Below are positions 17,301 to 23,300 of a DNA stretch of 64,000 nucleotides, piece after piece. The stretch lies in the NCBI RefSeq assembly GCF_988243305.1, contig NZ_OZ547136.1. One strand, given 5' to 3'. The first letter of the stretch is position 1. Every line of letters begins with the position of its first letter. Made by a program: the position numbers.

Positions 17301-20300
17301 TCGGCGAACCGAAAACCGATATCGACAAGATTCGTACCTGGAAAGAGAAAGTGATCAATCAGCTGACCGGTGGTCTGGCTGGTATGGCGAAAGGCCGCAA
17401 AGTCAAAGTGGTCAACGGTCTGGGTAAATTCACCGGGGCTAACACCCTGGAAGTTGAAGGTGAGAACGGCAAAACCGTGATCAACTTCGACAACGCGATC
17501 ATTGCAGCGGGTTCTCGCCCGATCCAACTGCCGTTTATTCCGCATGAAGATCCGCGTATCTGGGACTCCACTGACGCGCTGGAACTGAAAGAAGTACCAG
17601 AACGCCTGCTGGTAATGGGTGGCGGTATCATCGGTCTGGAAATGGGGACCGTATACCACGCGCTGGGTTCACAGATTGACGTGGTTGAAATGTTCGACCA
17701 GGTTATCCCGGCAGCTGACAAAGACATCGTTAAAGTCTTCACCAAGCGTATCAGCAAGAAATTCAACCTGATGCTGGAAACCAAAGTTACCGCCGTTGAA
17801 GCGAAAGAAGACGGTATTTATGTGACGATGGAAGGCAAAAAAGCACCCGCTGAACCGCAGCGTTACGACGCCGTGCTGGTAGCGATTGGTCGTGTGCCGA
17901 ACGGTAAAAACCTCGACGCAGGCAAAGCTGGCGTGGAAGTGGACGACCGTGGTTTCATCCGCGTTGACAAACAGCTGCGCACTAACGTACCGCACATCTT
18001 TGCTATCGGCGATATTGTCGGTCAGCCGATGCTGGCACACAAAGGTGTTCACGAAGGTCACGTTGCCGCTGAAGTTATCGCCGGTAAGAAACACTACTTC
18101 GATCCGAAAGTTATCCCGTCCATCGCCTATACCGAACCAGAAGTTGCATGGGTGGGTCTGACCGAGAAAGAAGCGAAAGAGAAAGGCATCAGCTATGAAA
18201 CTGCCACCTTCCCGTGGGCTGCTTCTGGTCGTGCGATCGCTTCCGACTGCGCAGACGGTATGACCAAGCTGATTTTCGACAAAGAATCTCACCGTGTGAT
18301 CGGTGGTGCGATTGTCGGTACTAACGGCGGCGAGCTGCTGGGTGAAATCGGCCTGGCAATCGAAATGGGTTGTGATGCTGAAGACATCGCACTGACCATC
18401 CATGCGCACCCGACTCTGCACGAGTCTGTGGGCCTGGCGGCAGAAGTGTTCGAAGGTAGCATTACCGACCTGCCGAACCCGAAAGCGAAGAAGAAGTAAT
18501 TTTTCGTTTGCCGGAACATCCGGCAATTAAAAAAGCGGCTAACCACGCCGCTTTTTTTACGCCTGCATTTTACCTTTCCATTCTCCTTGCTCCACGCTCA
18601 GACAACCGTTCCCGTATCGCTGACCGTTGCTCGTTATTCAGCCTGGCAGTACGGTTACTGTCGTTTAGACGTTGCGGGCGGCTCTCCTGAACTTTCTTCC
18701 GAAAAACCTGACGTTGCTCAGGTGATGCTGATTGAACACGCTGGCGGGCGTTATCACGTTGCTGTTGGTTCAGTGGGCGCTGCTGTACTTTTTCCTTAAA
18801 CACCTGGCGCTGCTCTGGTGATGCGGACTGAATACGCTCACGCGCTGCCTCTTTTCGCTGCTGGTTCTGCGGGTTAGTCTGCATTTTCTCGCGAACCGCC
18901 TGGCGCTGCTCAGGCGAGGCGGACTGAATACGCTCACGCGCTGCCTCTCTTCGCTGCTGGATCTGCGGGTTAGTCTGCATTTTCTCGCGGACTGCCTGGC
19001 GCTGCTCAGGAGAGGCCGACTGATAACGCTGACGAGCGGCGTCCTTTTGTTGCTGGGTCAGTGGTTGGCGACGGCTGAACTCGCGGAAGTCGTCATAGCT
19101 CCCATAATGTTCCGCTTCATTAAATCGCTGTGCCGCAGCCTGACGTTGAGTATCTCGCGTAATGACTGGCGCAGTGTGTGTTCGTTGCTGAAACTGACTT
19201 GCTGCTGCCTGACGCTGACTGTCGCGCGATAGAGCAGGTAACTGCGTGGCGCTCATGCCGCCGTTGACATCGGTTTGGTGAAACCGCTTTGCCATATCCT
19301 GATCATGATAGGGCACACCATCACGGTAGTTTGGATTGTGCCGCCATGCCATATTGTTATCAGTAAGATGCTCACCGGTGATACGGTTGAAATTGTTTAC
19401 GTCGATATTGATGTTGTCGCCGTTGTGTTGCCAGCCATTACCGTCACGATGACCGCCATCGTGGTGGTGATAATCATCATCGTCATGATGATGATGGTCA
19501 TGATCGTCGTCATCCCAGTCGATGCTGCTGAATAGCGCGTACGTGGTAGCAACGCCCATGCTATAGCCGAATCCGCGCACAAAGCTGTCAACAAACGGTT
19601 CTCCGGCTGGTGGTGGCAGATAAACTGGCGGATAAGCGGTATTGGCCCAACTGCCGTAAACCACGTTTGGGTTGTAGTTCGGAATATAAACCACATCCGG
19701 ATTGGCGGGCTCAATGGTTATTACGGTCGGTGCAGGTTCTGCGACGACGGGGCTGGACGTAGAAACGGTATTTGATTGTGTGACAGGGGCGTTGGCGGGC
19801 TGATTTACCGGTACGACTTTTTTCGTTGTCGTGATGATCTTTTGTTCAGTTGATGACTTCAGCGAGCCGGTTTGTTGCGCCAGTTGCCGCAATCGCTGTA
19901 CCGAGTCCATCACGTCCTGCGGCTGCGCCAGAAAAGCATCGCCCAGGTTTTGCACCCATTGCGGGTTTTCGCCCATCAATGCCATCAACTGTGGAAAGGC
20001 CACCAGTGATTTGACGCTGGCGTCCCAGGGCTGGTCAGATACCGCCTGAATAGCAGCATCGCCTTGTTTAAGTGGATTATCGTGCGACCATTGCACTGCT
20101 TGAGCAACGTTTGTCGGATAGGTTGATGCCATCAGCACTTGCGAAAGTAGGGCGTCGGGATACAGCGCGACGGGCGCGACCCATTGATCTATTTGTGCAG
20201 TGCTGAATGCAGATTTGACGACGGCGGGTGTTACGGGAGGTGCGGAAACCGTTGCAGGAAGCGTAACTGCGGAGATGTCAGGCGCAGCCAGTTGTGTCGA

Positions 20301-23300
20301 TTGCGCTTCCACAGGCGCTTCCACTGTGCGGCTTTTTATATATAGCCCGGCAGAGGCGGCACAAAGCCCGGCACTGCAAATTAGCGCCAGCACATGGGGT
20401 TTAAACGGCAAAGTCATTTTCATAATTCGGATCTCAAGGAAATCGCAATGGTCGGCGAACTGCCACCCGCAGGTGCTGAGAATCCGAGTATAAAGAGGCG
20501 GTAGTTTAAATTTTGACTAATCTTGGGATTCGTTGAGAAAGGTGATTATCACCATGCGAATTAACGAAGTTTTTACGGAGGGAAACAATCTCTAGACCAT
20601 CCTTAACGATTCAGCCACTTTTTTATGTTGCTTTTTTGTAAACAGATTAACACATCGTCAAAATCCTGCTATTCTGCCCGTTGCGGTACTGGGCATTTAC
20701 CCTACAAACTGCTGTCTCACAGGAGCGTGAAGAGAATCGCCTGCCGCACTATGACAATGAGAGCGAGGAGAACCGTCGTGCTAGAAGAATACCGTAAGCA
20801 CGTAGCTGAGCGTGCCGCTGAGGGGATTGCGCCCAAACCCCTGGATGCAAACCAAATGGCCGCACTTGTAGAGCTGCTGAAAAACCCGCCCGCGGGCGAA
20901 GAAGAATTCCTGTTAGATCTGTTAACCAACCGTGTTCCCCCTGGCGTCGATGAAGCCGCCTATGTCAAAGCAGGCTTCCTGGCTGCTGTCGCGAAAGGCG
21001 AAGCCAAATCCCCACTGCTGACTCCGGAAAAAGCCATCGAACTGCTGGGCACTATGCAGGGTGGTTACAACATTCATCCGCTGATCGACGCGCTGGATGA
21101 TGCCAAACTGGCACCGATCGCTGCCAAAGCACTTTCTCACACGCTGCTGATGTTCGATAACTTCTATGACGTAGAAGAGAAAGCCAAAGCAGGCAACGAA
21201 TATGCGAAGCAGGTAATGCAGTCCTGGGCGGATGCCGAATGGTTCCTGAATCGCCCGGCACTGGCTGAAAAACTGACCGTTACCGTCTTCAAAGTCACAG
21301 GCGAAACCAACACCGATGACCTTTCTCCGGCACCGGATGCGTGGTCACGCCCGGATATCCCACTGCACGCGCTGGCGATGCTGAAAAACGCCCGTGAAGG
21401 TATTGAGCCAGATCAGCCTGGTGTTGTTGGTCCGATCAAACAGATTGAAGCTCTGCAACAGAAAGGTTTCCCGCTGGCGTACGTCGGTGACGTTGTGGGT
21501 ACGGGTTCATCGCGTAAATCCGCCACGAACTCCGTTCTGTGGTTTATGGGCGATGATATTCCACATGTGCCGAACAAACGCGGCGGTGGTTTGTGCCTCG
21601 GCGGTAAAATTGCACCCATCTTCTTTAACACGATGGAAGATGCGGGTGCACTGCCAATTGAAGTGGACGTCTCTAACCTGAACATGGGTGACGTAATTGA
21701 CGTTTACCCGTACAAAGGTGAAGTGCGTAACCACGAAACCGGCGAACTGCTGGCGACCTTCGAACTGAAAACCGACGTGCTGATTGATGAAGTGCGTGCC
21801 GGTGGTCGTATTCCGCTGATTATCGGGCGTGGCCTGACCACCAAAGCGCGTGAAGCACTTGGTCTGCCGCACAGCGATGTGTTCCGTCAGGCGAAAGATG
21901 TCGCTGAGAGCGACCGCGGCTTCTCGCTGGCGCAGAAAATGGTAGGTCGTGCCTGCGGCGTGAAAGGCATTCGTCCGGGCGCGTACTGCGAACCGAAAAT
22001 GACTTCTGTAGGTTCCCAGGACACCACCGGCCCGATGACCCGTGATGAACTGAAAGACCTGGCGTGCCTGGGCTTCTCGGCTGACCTGGTGATGCAGTCT
22101 TTCTGCCACACCGCGGCGTATCCGAAGCCAGTTGACGTGAACACGCACCACACGCTGCCGGACTTCATTATGAACCGTGGTGGTGTGTCGCTGCGTCCGG
22201 GTGACGGCGTAATCCACTCCTGGCTGAACCGTATGCTGCTGCCGGATACCGTCGGTACCGGTGGTGACTCCCATACCCGTTTCCCGATCGGCATTTCTTT
22301 CCCGGCGGGTTCTGGTCTGGTGGCATTTGCAGCCGCAACAGGCGTAATGCCGCTGGATATGCCGGAATCCGTTCTGGTGCGCTTCAAAGGCAAAATGCAG
22401 CCGGGCATCACCCTGCGCGATCTGGTACACGCTATTCCGCTGTATGCGATCAAACAAGGTCTGCTGACCGTTGAGAAGAAAGGCAAGAAAAACATCTTCT
22501 CTGGTCGCATTCTGGAAATTGAAGGTCTGCCGGATCTGAAAGTTGAGCAGGCCTTTGAGCTGACCGATGCGTCCGCCGAGCGTTCTGCCGCTGGTTGTAC
22601 TATCAAGCTGAACAAAGAACCGATCATCGAATACCTGAACTCCAACATCGTCCTGCTGAAGTGGATGATCGCGGAAGGTTACGGCGATCGTCGTACCCTG
22701 GAACGTCGTATTCAGGGCATGGAAAAATGGCTGGCGAATCCTGAGCTGCTGGAAGCCGATGCAGATGCGGAATACGCGGCAGTGATCGACATCGATCTGG
22801 CGGATATTAAAGAGCCAATCCTGTGTGCTCCGAACGATCCGGATGACGCACGTCCGCTGTCTGCGGTACAGGGTGAGAAGATCGACGAAGTGTTTATCGG
22901 TTCCTGCATGACCAACATCGGTCACTTCCGTGCTGCGGGTAAACTGCTGGATGCGCATAAAGGCCAGTTGCCGACCCGCCTGTGGGTGGCACCGCCAACC
23001 CGTATGGACGCCGCGCAGTTGACCGAAGAAGGCTACTACAGCGTCTTCGGTAAGAGTGGTGCGCGTATCGAGATCCCTGGCTGTTCCCTGTGTATGGGTA
23101 ACCAGGCGCGTGTGGCAGACGGCGCGACGGTGGTTTCCACCTCTACCCGTAACTTCCCGAACCGTTTAGGTACTGGCGCGAATGTCTTCCTGGCTTCTGC
23201 GGAACTGGCTGCTGTTGCGGCGCTGATTGGCAAACTGCCGACGCCGGAAGAGTACCAGACCTACGTGGCGCAAGTAGATAAAACTGCCGTTGATACTTAC

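What the first reader, a model, noticed from the sequence alone, without database searches (positions are those of the whole stretch)
18570..20423. yacH carries 96-bp tandem repeats and a His/Asp-rich tract
The 3' part of the gene contains about three consecutive 96-bp units (18803-19090) encoding a repeated 32-aa Gln/Arg/Glu-rich motif. Further upstream a DDDDHDHHHHDDDDYHHHDGGH stretch suggests metal binding. Repeat number is a likely source of length polymorphism through slipped-strand or recombinational expansion; the protein is exported and uncharacterised.
Basis: seen in the sequence. Interest (0 to 1): 0.35.

Follow-up and report, generated by a model that had tools for sequence, protein, structure and literature searches.

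The report
Length-variable repeats in envelope gene yacH
The E. coli gene yacH, which encodes an exported protein of unknown function, really does carry a 96-base tandem repeat whose copy number differs between strains (3, 4 or 5 units) and a slippage-prone histidine/aspartate-coding tract. It is a well-documented but fairly ordinary case of a length-polymorphic coding repeat.

Summary
Window 18570-20423 (-) is yacH, a 617-aa protein of the DUF3300 family. It lies between lpd and acnB.

- **Repeat array.** The C-terminal part holds four in-frame 96-bp (32-aa) units at 18681-19064, plus a degenerate fifth.
- **His/Asp tract.** DDDDHDHHHHDDDDYHHHDGGH is at aa 304-325 (19449-19514).
In two evenly spaced samples of 5,426 complete E. 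coli genomes, about 55% carry 4 units and about 43% carry 3. A 5-unit allele also exists. Deletions occur in at least two different registers. Two alleles that differ by only 2 SNPs differ by both a 96-bp and a 39-bp indel.
- **The His/Asp tract also varies.** It shows in-frame indels of -13 to +8 aa. According to published work, an 8-bp deletion in this tract makes yacH a pseudogene in most S. Typhimurium strains examined.
- **Structure prediction.** AlphaFold models each unit as a helix-turn-helix hairpin in a basic tail. The His/Asp tract is a low-confidence loop inserted in the conserved domain, and it is largely restricted to Enterobacterales.
- **Selection.** Both features are under purifying selection (omega about 0.1-0.2).

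Metal binding is plausible but untested. No solved fold or characterised family matches, so function remains inferred. I rate it a new member of a known kind, of modest interest.

The parts
18570..20423 (-). yacH coding sequence (617 aa plus stop), DUF3300 family
   Evidence: ORF; annotated yacH in 5,425 of 5,426 E. coli genomes; Pfam PF11737 at E 1.9e-77
20349..20423 (-). Probable Sec signal peptide, aa 1-25 (MKMTLPFKPHVLALICSAGLCAASA, then G26)
   Evidence: Read from the sequence: positively charged n-region, hydrophobic core, A-S-A motif. Highest Kyte-Doolittle window in the protein, 2.04 at aa 11-29. AF2 helix 9-23. The cleavage site is inferred, not tested.
19425..20201 (-). Pfam DUF3300 match, aa 75-333: helical subdomain aa 75-184 followed by a beta-rich subdomain
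   Evidence: AF2 pLDDT above 95 for aa 71-200
19728..19823 (-). Dimorphic hypervariable loop, aa 201-232, between two predicted paired strands
   Evidence: 86% nucleotide identity to K-12 in this 300-bp block, against 97-100% in the flanking genes. dS about 0.8 and dN about 0.23 between the two loop types. AF2 strands 194-200 and 233-239.
19449..19514 (-). His/Asp tract DDDDHDHHHHDDDDYHHHDGGH (aa 304-325), encoded by GAY/CAY simple sequence
   Evidence: TRF 9-bp period at 19474-19508. AF2 pLDDT 42-46. Length variants of +2, +8, -1, -7 and -13 aa.
19275..19418 (-). Conserved motifs after the tract, aa 336-383 (NINIDVNNFNRI ... WRHNPNYRDGVPYHD...). They belong to the family core but lie largely beyond the Pfam model
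   Evidence: Family consensus (W and H invariant). AF2 pLDDT 93-94 for aa 361-380 in the full-length model and 83-84 when modelled without the N-terminal part.
19122..19229 (-). Two short related segments, SRDSQRQAAASQF (aa 399-411) and TRDTQRQAAAQRF (aa 422-434), upstream of the array. This is the site of a 45-aa tandem duplication in some E. coli alleles
   Evidence: 662-aa alleles P0017 and P0019
18969..19064 (-). Repeat unit 1 (aa 454-485), PLTQQQKDAARQRYQSASPEQRQAVREKMQTN
18873..18968 (-). Repeat unit 2 (aa 486-517), PQIQQRREAARERIQSASPEQRQAVREKMQTN. This is the unit type whose number varies
18777..18872 (-). Repeat unit 3 (aa 518-549), PQNQQRKEAARERIQSASPEQRQVFKEKVQQR
18681..18776 (-). 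Repeat unit 4 (aa 550-581), PLNQQQRDNARQRVQSASPEQRQVFRKKVQES
   Evidence: TRF row 1
18573..18680 (-). Degenerate fifth unit and basic C-terminus (aa 582-617)
   Evidence: AF2 long helix 568-607
18529..18557 (.). Hairpin of a bidirectional intrinsic terminator shared by convergent lpd and yacH
   Evidence: RNA fold -21.2 kcal/mol, z -3.2, flanked by A and U runs

Best explanation
yacH encodes a Sec-exported, membrane-proximal envelope protein of the large and uncharacterised DUF3300 family.

**Repeat array.**
- The last third of the protein is a basic, Gln/Arg/Glu-rich tail. Four tandem 32-aa units (96 bp each) and a degenerate fifth make up most of it.
- Each unit is predicted to fold as one helix-turn-helix hairpin bounded by Pro residues (inferred from AF2).
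- Units share exact runs of 21-30 nt and their length is a multiple of three. Misaligned homologous exchange or replication slippage therefore adds or removes whole units without breaking the frame (inferred from the junction structures).
- E. coli is accordingly polymorphic for 3, 4 and rarely 5 units, with changes in at least two registers and on different allelic backgrounds (shown).

**His/Asp tract.**
- It is an insertion, largely restricted to Enterobacterales, in a surface loop of the conserved domain (shown by family alignment; the loop character is from AF2).
- It is encoded by GAY/CAY simple sequence that suffers microhomology-mediated indels. These are in-frame in E. coli. In S. Typhimurium an 8-bp frameshift inactivates the gene (shown; the Salmonella part is from the literature).

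**Function (inferred only).**
- Both segments evolve under purifying selection, so the peptides matter.
- The tail most likely acts as a polyvalent electrostatic binder or spacer for anionic envelope components, with length and valency set by unit number.
- The acidic His-rich loop most likely acts as a low-affinity site for divalent metals or for proton titration.
For: **Repeat and tract are real.**

**Polymorphism.**
- Alignment of 8 alleles shows exact 32-aa gaps.
- P0009 has 5 units. P0017 and P0019 carry a 45-aa duplication. P0036 and P0038 are His-tract variants.
- Evenly spaced samples give 21 of 40 with 4 units and 17 of 40 with 3, and 33 of 60 against 26 of 60.

**Recurrence.**
- Two array architectures exist, each with a variable number of '...AVREKMQTN' units. 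K-type has n = 1, 2 or 3. C-type has n = 2 or 3.
- Three- and four-unit alleles occur on both hypervariable-loop backgrounds.
- L004 and L006 differ by 2 SNPs but by a 96-bp and a 39-bp indel.
- The 39-bp deletion is flanked by TCAT microhomology.
- Unit 2 is a mosaic: its 5' half matches unit 3 and its 3' half matches unit 1, with exact runs of 30 and 21 nt. This is what an unequal crossover would produce.

**Purifying selection.** Omega is 0.15-0.23 in the units and 0-0.14 in the tract.

**Structure.** AF2 places two helices in each unit, with pLDDT about 80 in the full-length model and 88-96 in the C-terminal model. The tract has pLDDT 42-46.

**Family.**
- 9,539 representative clusters match at E up to 0.001.
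- The tail is net positive in 94% of 106 representatives, median +15. Only 8 of 106 have 5 or more His in the loop.
- The identified carriers of a long His/Asp tract are Scandinavium and Rahnella, both Enterobacterales.

**Salmonella.** The frameshift inside the tract is reported in PMC3391293 and PMC10048834.

**Envelope link.** yacH is reported as CpxR-regulated and repressed by protamine, and a yacH deletion survives protamine better (PMC9600279).
Against: - The tail sequence is not conserved across the family, only its charge and low complexity. Length variation could therefore be nearly neutral.
- Topology is not settled. The segment aligned to aa 275-303 reaches transmembrane-like hydrophobicity (Kyte-Doolittle 1.6 or more) in 45% of family members. 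If it spans the membrane, the tract and tail would be cytoplasmic.
- AF2 confidence on idealised helical repeats can be inflated. pTM is only 0.39-0.60.
- Genome samples are not phylogenetically independent, so the 55/43% figures describe the database, not the species.
- I could not separate RecA-dependent exchange from slippage.
Confidence: 0.65

Rival explanations
1. Neutral low-complexity tail. The repeat array and His/Asp tract are tolerated, mutation-driven sequence with no specific role, and copy-number differences are selectively neutral hitch-hikers.
For: - Tail sequences differ completely between lineages of the family.
- Omega is higher in the tail (0.15-0.29) than in the core (0-0.09).
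- yacH is a pseudogene in most S. Typhimurium strains compared (PMC3391293).
- Deletion mutants are viable, with mild or beneficial phenotypes (PMC9600279, PMC7376861).
Against: - Omega is well below 1 in the units and in the tract.
- The tract keeps its 22-aa length even in the deeply divergent AST85 allele, despite high indel mutability.
- Unit number stays within 3-5.
- Positive tail charge is conserved in 94% of representatives.
- In the 100 sampled complete genomes, almost all yacH genes are annotated intact.
Confidence: 0.25
2. Target of diversifying or balancing selection. YacH is exposed to phages, colicins, host antimicrobial peptides or antibodies. The repeat-number changes, the dimorphic loop and the deeply divergent alleles would then be products of an arms race.
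For: - yacH has dS 0.18 and dN 0.033 against K-12, while lpd has 0.039 and 0, and acnB has 0.099 and 0.0005.
- The loop haplotypes differ with dS about 0.8.
- An allele about 75% identical over the 5' 600 nt sits between normal flanking genes in strain AST85.
- There are links to protamine and cecropin (PMC9600279).
- One paper lists the predicted location as extracellular (PMC9600279).
Against: - Omega is below 1 in most segments, and about 1 only in the N-terminal linker, on very few changes.
- No evidence of surface exposure exists.
- The family looks periplasmic: signal peptides, lipoboxes and a membrane-proximal anchor.
- High dS can also reflect imported DNA rather than selection.
Confidence: 0.12
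3. CpxP/Spy/ZraP-like module. The repeat units are multimerised LTXXQ-type hairpins. YacH would then be a Cpx-regulated periplasmic chaperone or adaptor, with the His/Asp loop as a zinc site as in ZraP.
For: - BLASTP of the array against CpxP gives E 0.005 (single comparison), 34% identity over 91 aa. Two SASPEQRQ motifs align with the two LTXXQ motifs of CpxP.
- Smith-Waterman z against shuffles is 3.8 for CpxP, 2.4 for ZraP and 1.6 for Spy. Five unrelated controls give -0.6 to 0.85.
- yacH is reported as CpxR-regulated (PMC9600279).
Against: - The Pfam scan of the tail at E up to 10 did not list LTXXQ or Metal_resist.
- NCBIfam CpxP and Spy models did not match the tail, while CpxP itself scored 3e-64.
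- S/T-x-x-E is a common helix N-cap motif, and both sequences are Q/R/E-rich.
- The comparison was chosen after I noticed the motif.
Confidence: 0.05
4. Bitopic inner-membrane protein. The hydrophobic Gly-rich segment at aa 281-303 spans the membrane, so the His/Asp tract and basic repeat tail are cytoplasmic and bind nucleic acid or the inner leaflet.
For: - The aligned segment has Kyte-Doolittle 1.6 or more in 45% of 104 representatives, median 1.56.
- The tail is strongly basic, which fits the positive-inside rule.
Against: - The E. coli segment scores only 0.78.
- AF2 models it as short strands, not a helix, with pLDDT 72-85.
- The residues immediately after it are strongly acidic (DWDDDD...), which is atypical for a cytoplasmic flank.
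- The NINIDV strand loses its strand assignment, and its pLDDT drops from 61-77 to 46-47, when modelled without the N-terminal part. This suggests it packs with that part.
Confidence: 0.1

Closest known systems
Intragenic minisatellites (coding VNTRs) of E. coli/Shigella, such as the MLVA loci ms06, ms07 (39 bp) and ms11 (96 bp)
   Same: Head-to-tail units whose length is a multiple of three. Copy number differs between strains and the reading frame is preserved. The likely origin is unequal exchange or slippage.
   Different: - yacH is not one of these loci. The ms11 primers given in PMC8215070 are absent from the 64-kb window, even allowing 3 mismatches.
- The range seen here is narrow, 3-5 units.
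- Units are only 67-82% identical to each other.
DUF3300-DUF2950 gene pairs of other Proteobacteria (PMC4653623)
   Same: The conserved DUF3300 core is the same. Both have an N-terminal export signal and a basic low-complexity C-terminal tail.
   Different: - E. coli yacH stands alone between acnB and lpd, and tblastn finds no DUF2950 in the window.
- Four of seven non-E. coli homologues examined have DUF2950 immediately downstream. In a fifth the downstream gene is cut off and was not identified.
- Most of those homologues lack a His/Asp tract, and all lack the 96-bp array.
Histidine-rich disordered loops of periplasmic zinc proteins (ZnuA from my own knowledge; PA4063, PMC8561739)
   Same: An exported protein with a disordered loop rich in His and acidic residues.
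   Different: The fold is unrelated. There is no evidence that yacH is metal-regulated, and metal binding is untested. The tract is also a mutational hot spot.
CpxP/Spy/ZraP (LTXXQ) periplasmic stress proteins
   Same: Helical hairpins begin with an S/T-x-E-Q-(R/Q)-Q motif. Both are periplasmic and linked to Cpx. Pairwise similarity to CpxP is weak.
   Different: No HMM match and no structural match. In YacH the motif occurs once per 32-aa unit in a tandem array.
Charged helical spacer regions of envelope-spanning proteins (TolA domain II, TonB Pro-rich spacer; my own knowledge)
   Same: A membrane-anchored periplasmic protein with a long, highly charged, repetitive helical region of variable length.
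   Different: The YacH tail is terminal, with no distal domain. It is predicted as hairpins rather than one long helix. No partner is known.

Membership tests
DUF3300 (Pfam PF11737) | Match to the family HMM above the gathering score | tested here: met
   260.2 bits against a cut-off of 25, E 1.9e-77, aa 75-333 covering model positions 2-227 of 227
DUF3300 (Pfam PF11737) | N-terminal export signal | tested here: inconclusive
   The sequence has a signal-like N-terminus with A-S-A before G26. Homologues carry lipoboxes. No dedicated predictor or experiment was available.
DUF3300-DUF2950 operon | DUF2950 gene immediately downstream | tested here: not met
   lpd lies convergent downstream. tblastn with two DUF2950 proteins finds nothing in the window, best E 0.53.
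Coding VNTR (intragenic minisatellite) | Tandem head-to-tail copies beyond chance | tested here: met
   TRF score up to 382; 225 of 288 self-matches at offset 96 against at most 114 in shuffles
Coding VNTR (intragenic minisatellite) | Copy number differs between strains while the frame is kept | tested here: met
   Alleles with 3, 4 and 5 units, all intact ORFs; about 43% against 55% in samples
Phase-variable contingency locus | Repeat changes switch the gene on and off by reversible frameshift | tested here: not met
   The unit is 96 bp, a multiple of 3, and all E. coli length variants seen are in-frame. The Salmonella 8-bp deletion is a fixed pseudogene lesion (PMC3391293), not shown to be reversible.
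CpxP/Spy/ZraP (LTXXQ) family | Match to family HMMs | tested here: not met
   Not among Pfam hits at E up to 10. NCBIfam CpxP and Spy models are silent on the tail, while CpxP scores 3.4e-64.
CpxP/Spy/ZraP (LTXXQ) family | Structural similarity to the CpxP/Spy hairpin fold | tested here: not met
His-rich periplasmic metal-binding loops | Clustered His with acidic residues in a flexible exposed loop | tested here: met
   9 His and 10 Asp in 22 aa; pLDDT 42-46
His-rich periplasmic metal-binding loops | Measured binding of Zn, Ni or Cu, or metal-dependent regulation or phenotype | not testable with these tools
   No literature found; needs biochemistry
MLVA locus ms11 (96-bp unit) | Published primers flank the repeat | tested here: not met
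   Neither primer matches the window with up to 3 mismatches

The most novel reading that the evidence does not exclude
yacH may be an unrecognised target of long-term balancing or diversifying selection in the E. coli envelope. Three observations fit this: a dimorphic loop with dS about 0.8, a deeply divergent allele sitting between conserved housekeeping genes, and recurrent in-frame changes of repeat number and His/Asp-tract length. On this reading the protein is seen by phages, colicins, host cationic peptides or antibodies, and may be surface-exposed or released. Repeat number would tune that interaction.
Probability: 0.12. Interest if true: 0.55.

Novelty: new member of a known kind. Interest (0 to 1): 0.3.

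Why it matters
yacH is a near-universal E. coli gene with no known function, and it represents a very large uncharacterised family (about 9,500 representative clusters).

- **For bench work.** The species is split roughly in half between 3- and 4-unit alleles, and both low-complexity tracts mutate about as often as single bases do between the one pair of near-identical alleles compared. Natural allelic series are therefore available for functional tests.
- **For annotation and typing.** The results warn that yacH length differences and His-tract frameshifts are real biology, not assembly error.
- **For population genetics.** The locus stands out as a local diversity hot spot between two very conserved housekeeping genes.

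It does not by itself reveal a new mechanism.

Tried and rejected
1. **MLVA locus ms11.** It also has a 96-bp unit (PMC8215070), so I suspected it was yacH. Its primers are absent from the window. Rejected.
2. **CpxR box upstream of yacH.** Searching GTAAA-N5-GTAAA with up to 2 mismatches gave no site in the yacH-acnB intergenic region, and the count in the window was at chance level.
3. **Promoter and terminator scan.** It found nothing usable for yacH. The terminator was found by folding instead.
4. **Rfam.** Nothing reached a gathering score in 18300-20900.
5. **Antisense ORFs across the repeats** (18587-18799 and 19047-19232, + strand). No supporting evidence; treated as chance.
6. **Solved-structure relatives.**
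   - The sequence search found only a His-tag artefact.
   - The afdb50 library was unavailable.
7. **CpxP/Spy/ZraP homology.** There is a weak pairwise signal only, with no HMM support. Kept as a low-probability rival.
8. **Weak Pfam hit to DUF3106** (E 0.55). Not pursued.
9. **Transmembrane reading of aa 281-303.** Disfavoured but not excluded.
10. **DUF2950 partner.** Not in the window. I could not search whole E. coli genomes at protein level.
11. **Literature on YacH metal binding.** None found.

Full report
**What is there**

The interval 18570-20423 on the minus strand is a single 617-aa ORF. It lies between lpd (convergent) and acnB (divergent). It is annotated yacH, 'DUF3300 domain-containing protein', in E. 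coli, and megablast finds it in 5,425 of 5,426 complete genomes. Pfam DUF3300 matches aa 75-333 at E 1.9e-77. NCBIfam has no model for it. A stable hairpin at 18529-18557, flanked by A and U runs, serves as a shared terminator for the two convergent genes.

**Checking the observation**

- In protein register there are four full 32-aa units: U1 18969-19064, U2 18873-18968, U3 18777-18872 and U4 18681-18776. A degenerate fifth follows.
- Neighbouring units are 71-82% identical in DNA.
- Self-match at offset 96 is 225 of 288 bases, against at most 114 in codon shuffles.
- The tract DDDDHDHHHHDDDDYHHHDGGH is at aa 304-325 (19449-19514). It holds 19 D or H in 22 residues, against 6% elsewhere in the protein.

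Both observations are real. The only correction is four good units rather than three.

**Length polymorphism**

- *Allele types.* Aligning alleles from complete genomes shows clean 32-aa gaps. There are 585-aa alleles with three units and 617-aa alleles with four, including this window and K-12. Protein searches add a 648-aa allele with five units, three of them identical. They also add a 662-aa allele with a separate 45-aa tandem duplication just upstream of the array.
- *Frequencies.* Two samples taken at even steps down the ranking of all genomes give 21 of 40 and 33 of 60 with four units, and 17 of 40 and 26 of 60 with three. These figures describe the database, not an unbiased population.
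- *More than one event.* Two array architectures exist.
  - One ends in '...VFKEKVQQR | PLNQQQRDN...VFREKVQES' and has 1, 2 or 3 copies of the '...AVREKMQTN' unit.
  - The other lacks that penultimate unit and has 2 or 3 copies.
  - Two different 617-aa alleles therefore reach the same length by different routes.
- *Backgrounds.* Three- and four-unit arrays occur on both types of the upstream hypervariable loop.
- *Recent change.* Alleles L004 and L006 differ by only two SNPs, yet also by one 96-bp unit and a 39-bp deletion in the His/Asp tract.
- *Mosaic unit.* Unit 2 matches unit 3 in its 5' half and unit 1 in its 3' half, with exact runs of 30 and 21 nt. Unequal exchange between misaligned units would produce exactly this.

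**The His/Asp tract is a second hot spot**

Its DNA is GAY/CAY simple sequence with many short direct repeats. E. coli alleles show +2, +8, -1, -7 and -13 aa variants. The 39-bp deletion is bounded by TCAT microhomology.

Published comparisons report an 8-bp deletion at codon Asp284, inside the equivalent tract. It makes yacH a pseudogene in S. Typhimurium UK-1, 14028s, D23580 and SL1344 relative to LT2 (PMC3391293), and in a human-milk isolate (PMC10048834).

Most E. coli alleles nevertheless keep 22 residues, including the very divergent AST85 allele.

**Selection**

- Against K-12, yacH has dS 0.18 and dN 0.033. The flanking genes are far more conserved: lpd 0.039 and 0, acnB 0.099 and 0.0005.
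- Within yacH, omega is about 0-0.07 in the helical domain, 0.15-0.23 in the repeat units and 0-0.14 in the tract. The repeat and tract peptides are therefore constrained, not junk.
- The loop at aa 201-232 is dimorphic, with dS about 0.8 between types.

**Structure and family**

- *Full-length model.* AlphaFold2 with 106 family sequences gives mean pLDDT 74.
  - There is a confident helical subdomain (aa 75-184).
  - A beta-rich subdomain extends to about aa 382.
  - The His/Asp tract is a low-confidence loop (pLDDT 42-46).
  - Each repeat unit holds two helices.
- *C-terminal model.* A model of aa 304-617 alone gives pLDDT 88-96 for the hairpins, while the NINIDV strand loses confidence. That strand therefore probably packs against the N-terminal part.
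- *Family size.* The family is very large, with 9,539 representative clusters at E up to 0.001.
- *Tails.* Tails are net positive in 94% of 106 representatives (median +15), but their sequences and repeats are lineage-specific.
- *Distribution of the tract.*
  - Only 8 of 106 representatives have 5 or more His at the loop.
  - The closest ones are from Scandinavium and Rahnella.
  - The long tract is thus mainly a feature of Enterobacterales, and the crisp 96-bp array is seen only in Escherichia alleles here.
- *Gene context.* Four of seven homologues from other bacteria have a DUF2950 gene directly downstream, as reported for rhizobia (PMC4653623). In a fifth the downstream gene is cut off and unidentified. 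E. coli yacH stands alone.

**How it most likely works**

*Shown:* an exported-looking DUF3300 protein carries two in-frame, mutable, selectively constrained low-complexity segments whose lengths vary between strains.

*Inferred:*
- Unit gain and loss come from unequal homologous exchange or slippage.
- Each unit adds one basic helical hairpin, so unit number sets the length and valency of a cationic tail. That tail probably contacts anionic envelope material.
- The acidic His-rich loop offers a metal- or proton-titratable site.

The only phenotypic hints are reported CpxR regulation, repression by protamine, and better protamine survival of a yacH deletion (PMC9600279).

**Rivals**

1. A neutral tail. 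This is countered by omega well below 1 and by the conserved charge.
2. An arms-race target. The unusual diversity supports it, but there is no evidence of surface exposure.
3. A CpxP/Spy-like hairpin module.
   - For: pairwise similarity to CpxP, with Smith-Waterman z 3.8 and motifs in register.
   - Against: no HMM or structural support.
4. A bitopic topology with a cytoplasmic tail.
   - For: the hydrophobic segment in about half the family.
   - Against: AF2 and the acidic flank.

**Verdict**

This is a new, well-supported example of a known kind of feature, a coding minisatellite plus a slippery His/Asp-coding tract, in an uncharacterised core gene. Interest is modest (0.3). The most interesting open thread is why this gene is so much more diverse than its neighbours.

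Noticed in passing
window 19728-19823 (yacH aa 201-232): A dimorphic hypervariable loop sits between two predicted paired beta strands. The two haplotypes, VVPVNQPAN... and AVPVKQTVT..., differ with dS about 0.8 and dN about 0.23. The flanking genes lpd and acnB have dS of only 0.04-0.10 against the same strain. Both haplotypes occur with both 3- and 4-unit arrays.
   Followed up: partly
L007 3001-4860 (E. coli AST85, NZ_AP043644.1): A yacH allele only about 75% identical over the 5' 600 nt sits at the normal locus, between ordinary acnB and lpdA. Its LpdA protein is identical to that of K-12. It has its own set of three near-identical units and a 22-aa His/Asp tract. This points to old allelic divergence or import from another species.
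   Followed up: partly
L023 4010-4990; L021 about 3670-3840; L027 1-3007: The yacH-lpdA spacer and the yacH 5' side are insertion sites in some strains. E57 has IS621. O84:H7 Trh52 and 95-3322 have a 171-bp REP/BIME-like element. In IH5 the 5' part of yacH is replaced by P2-like prophage remnants.
   Followed up: no
window 18529-18557: A strong hairpin (-21.2 kcal/mol, z -3.2) flanked by A and T runs lies between convergent lpd and yacH. It is a likely bidirectional terminator, and the simple terminator scan missed it.
   Followed up: yes
window 20625-20777: The mechanical ORF for acnB starts at 20625. Comparison with K-12 places the real start at 20778 (VLEEYRK...). The yacH-acnB divergent intergenic region is therefore about 354 bp. 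A SELEX study lists an RpoF-holoenzyme binding site in this spacer (PMC5493296).
   Followed up: no
loci L009, L010, L013, L014, L015: In distant homologues the DUF3300 gene is followed directly, sometimes with overlap, by a DUF2950 gene. The DUF2950 protein has no sequence relative among solved structures. E. coli yacH has lost this partner or never had it.
   Followed up: partly
family alignment A1, segment aligned to yacH aa 275-303: A Gly-rich hydrophobic segment reaches transmembrane-like hydrophobicity in about 45% of family representatives. In E. coli it scores only 0.78. The membrane topology of the family is therefore unsettled.
   Followed up: partly
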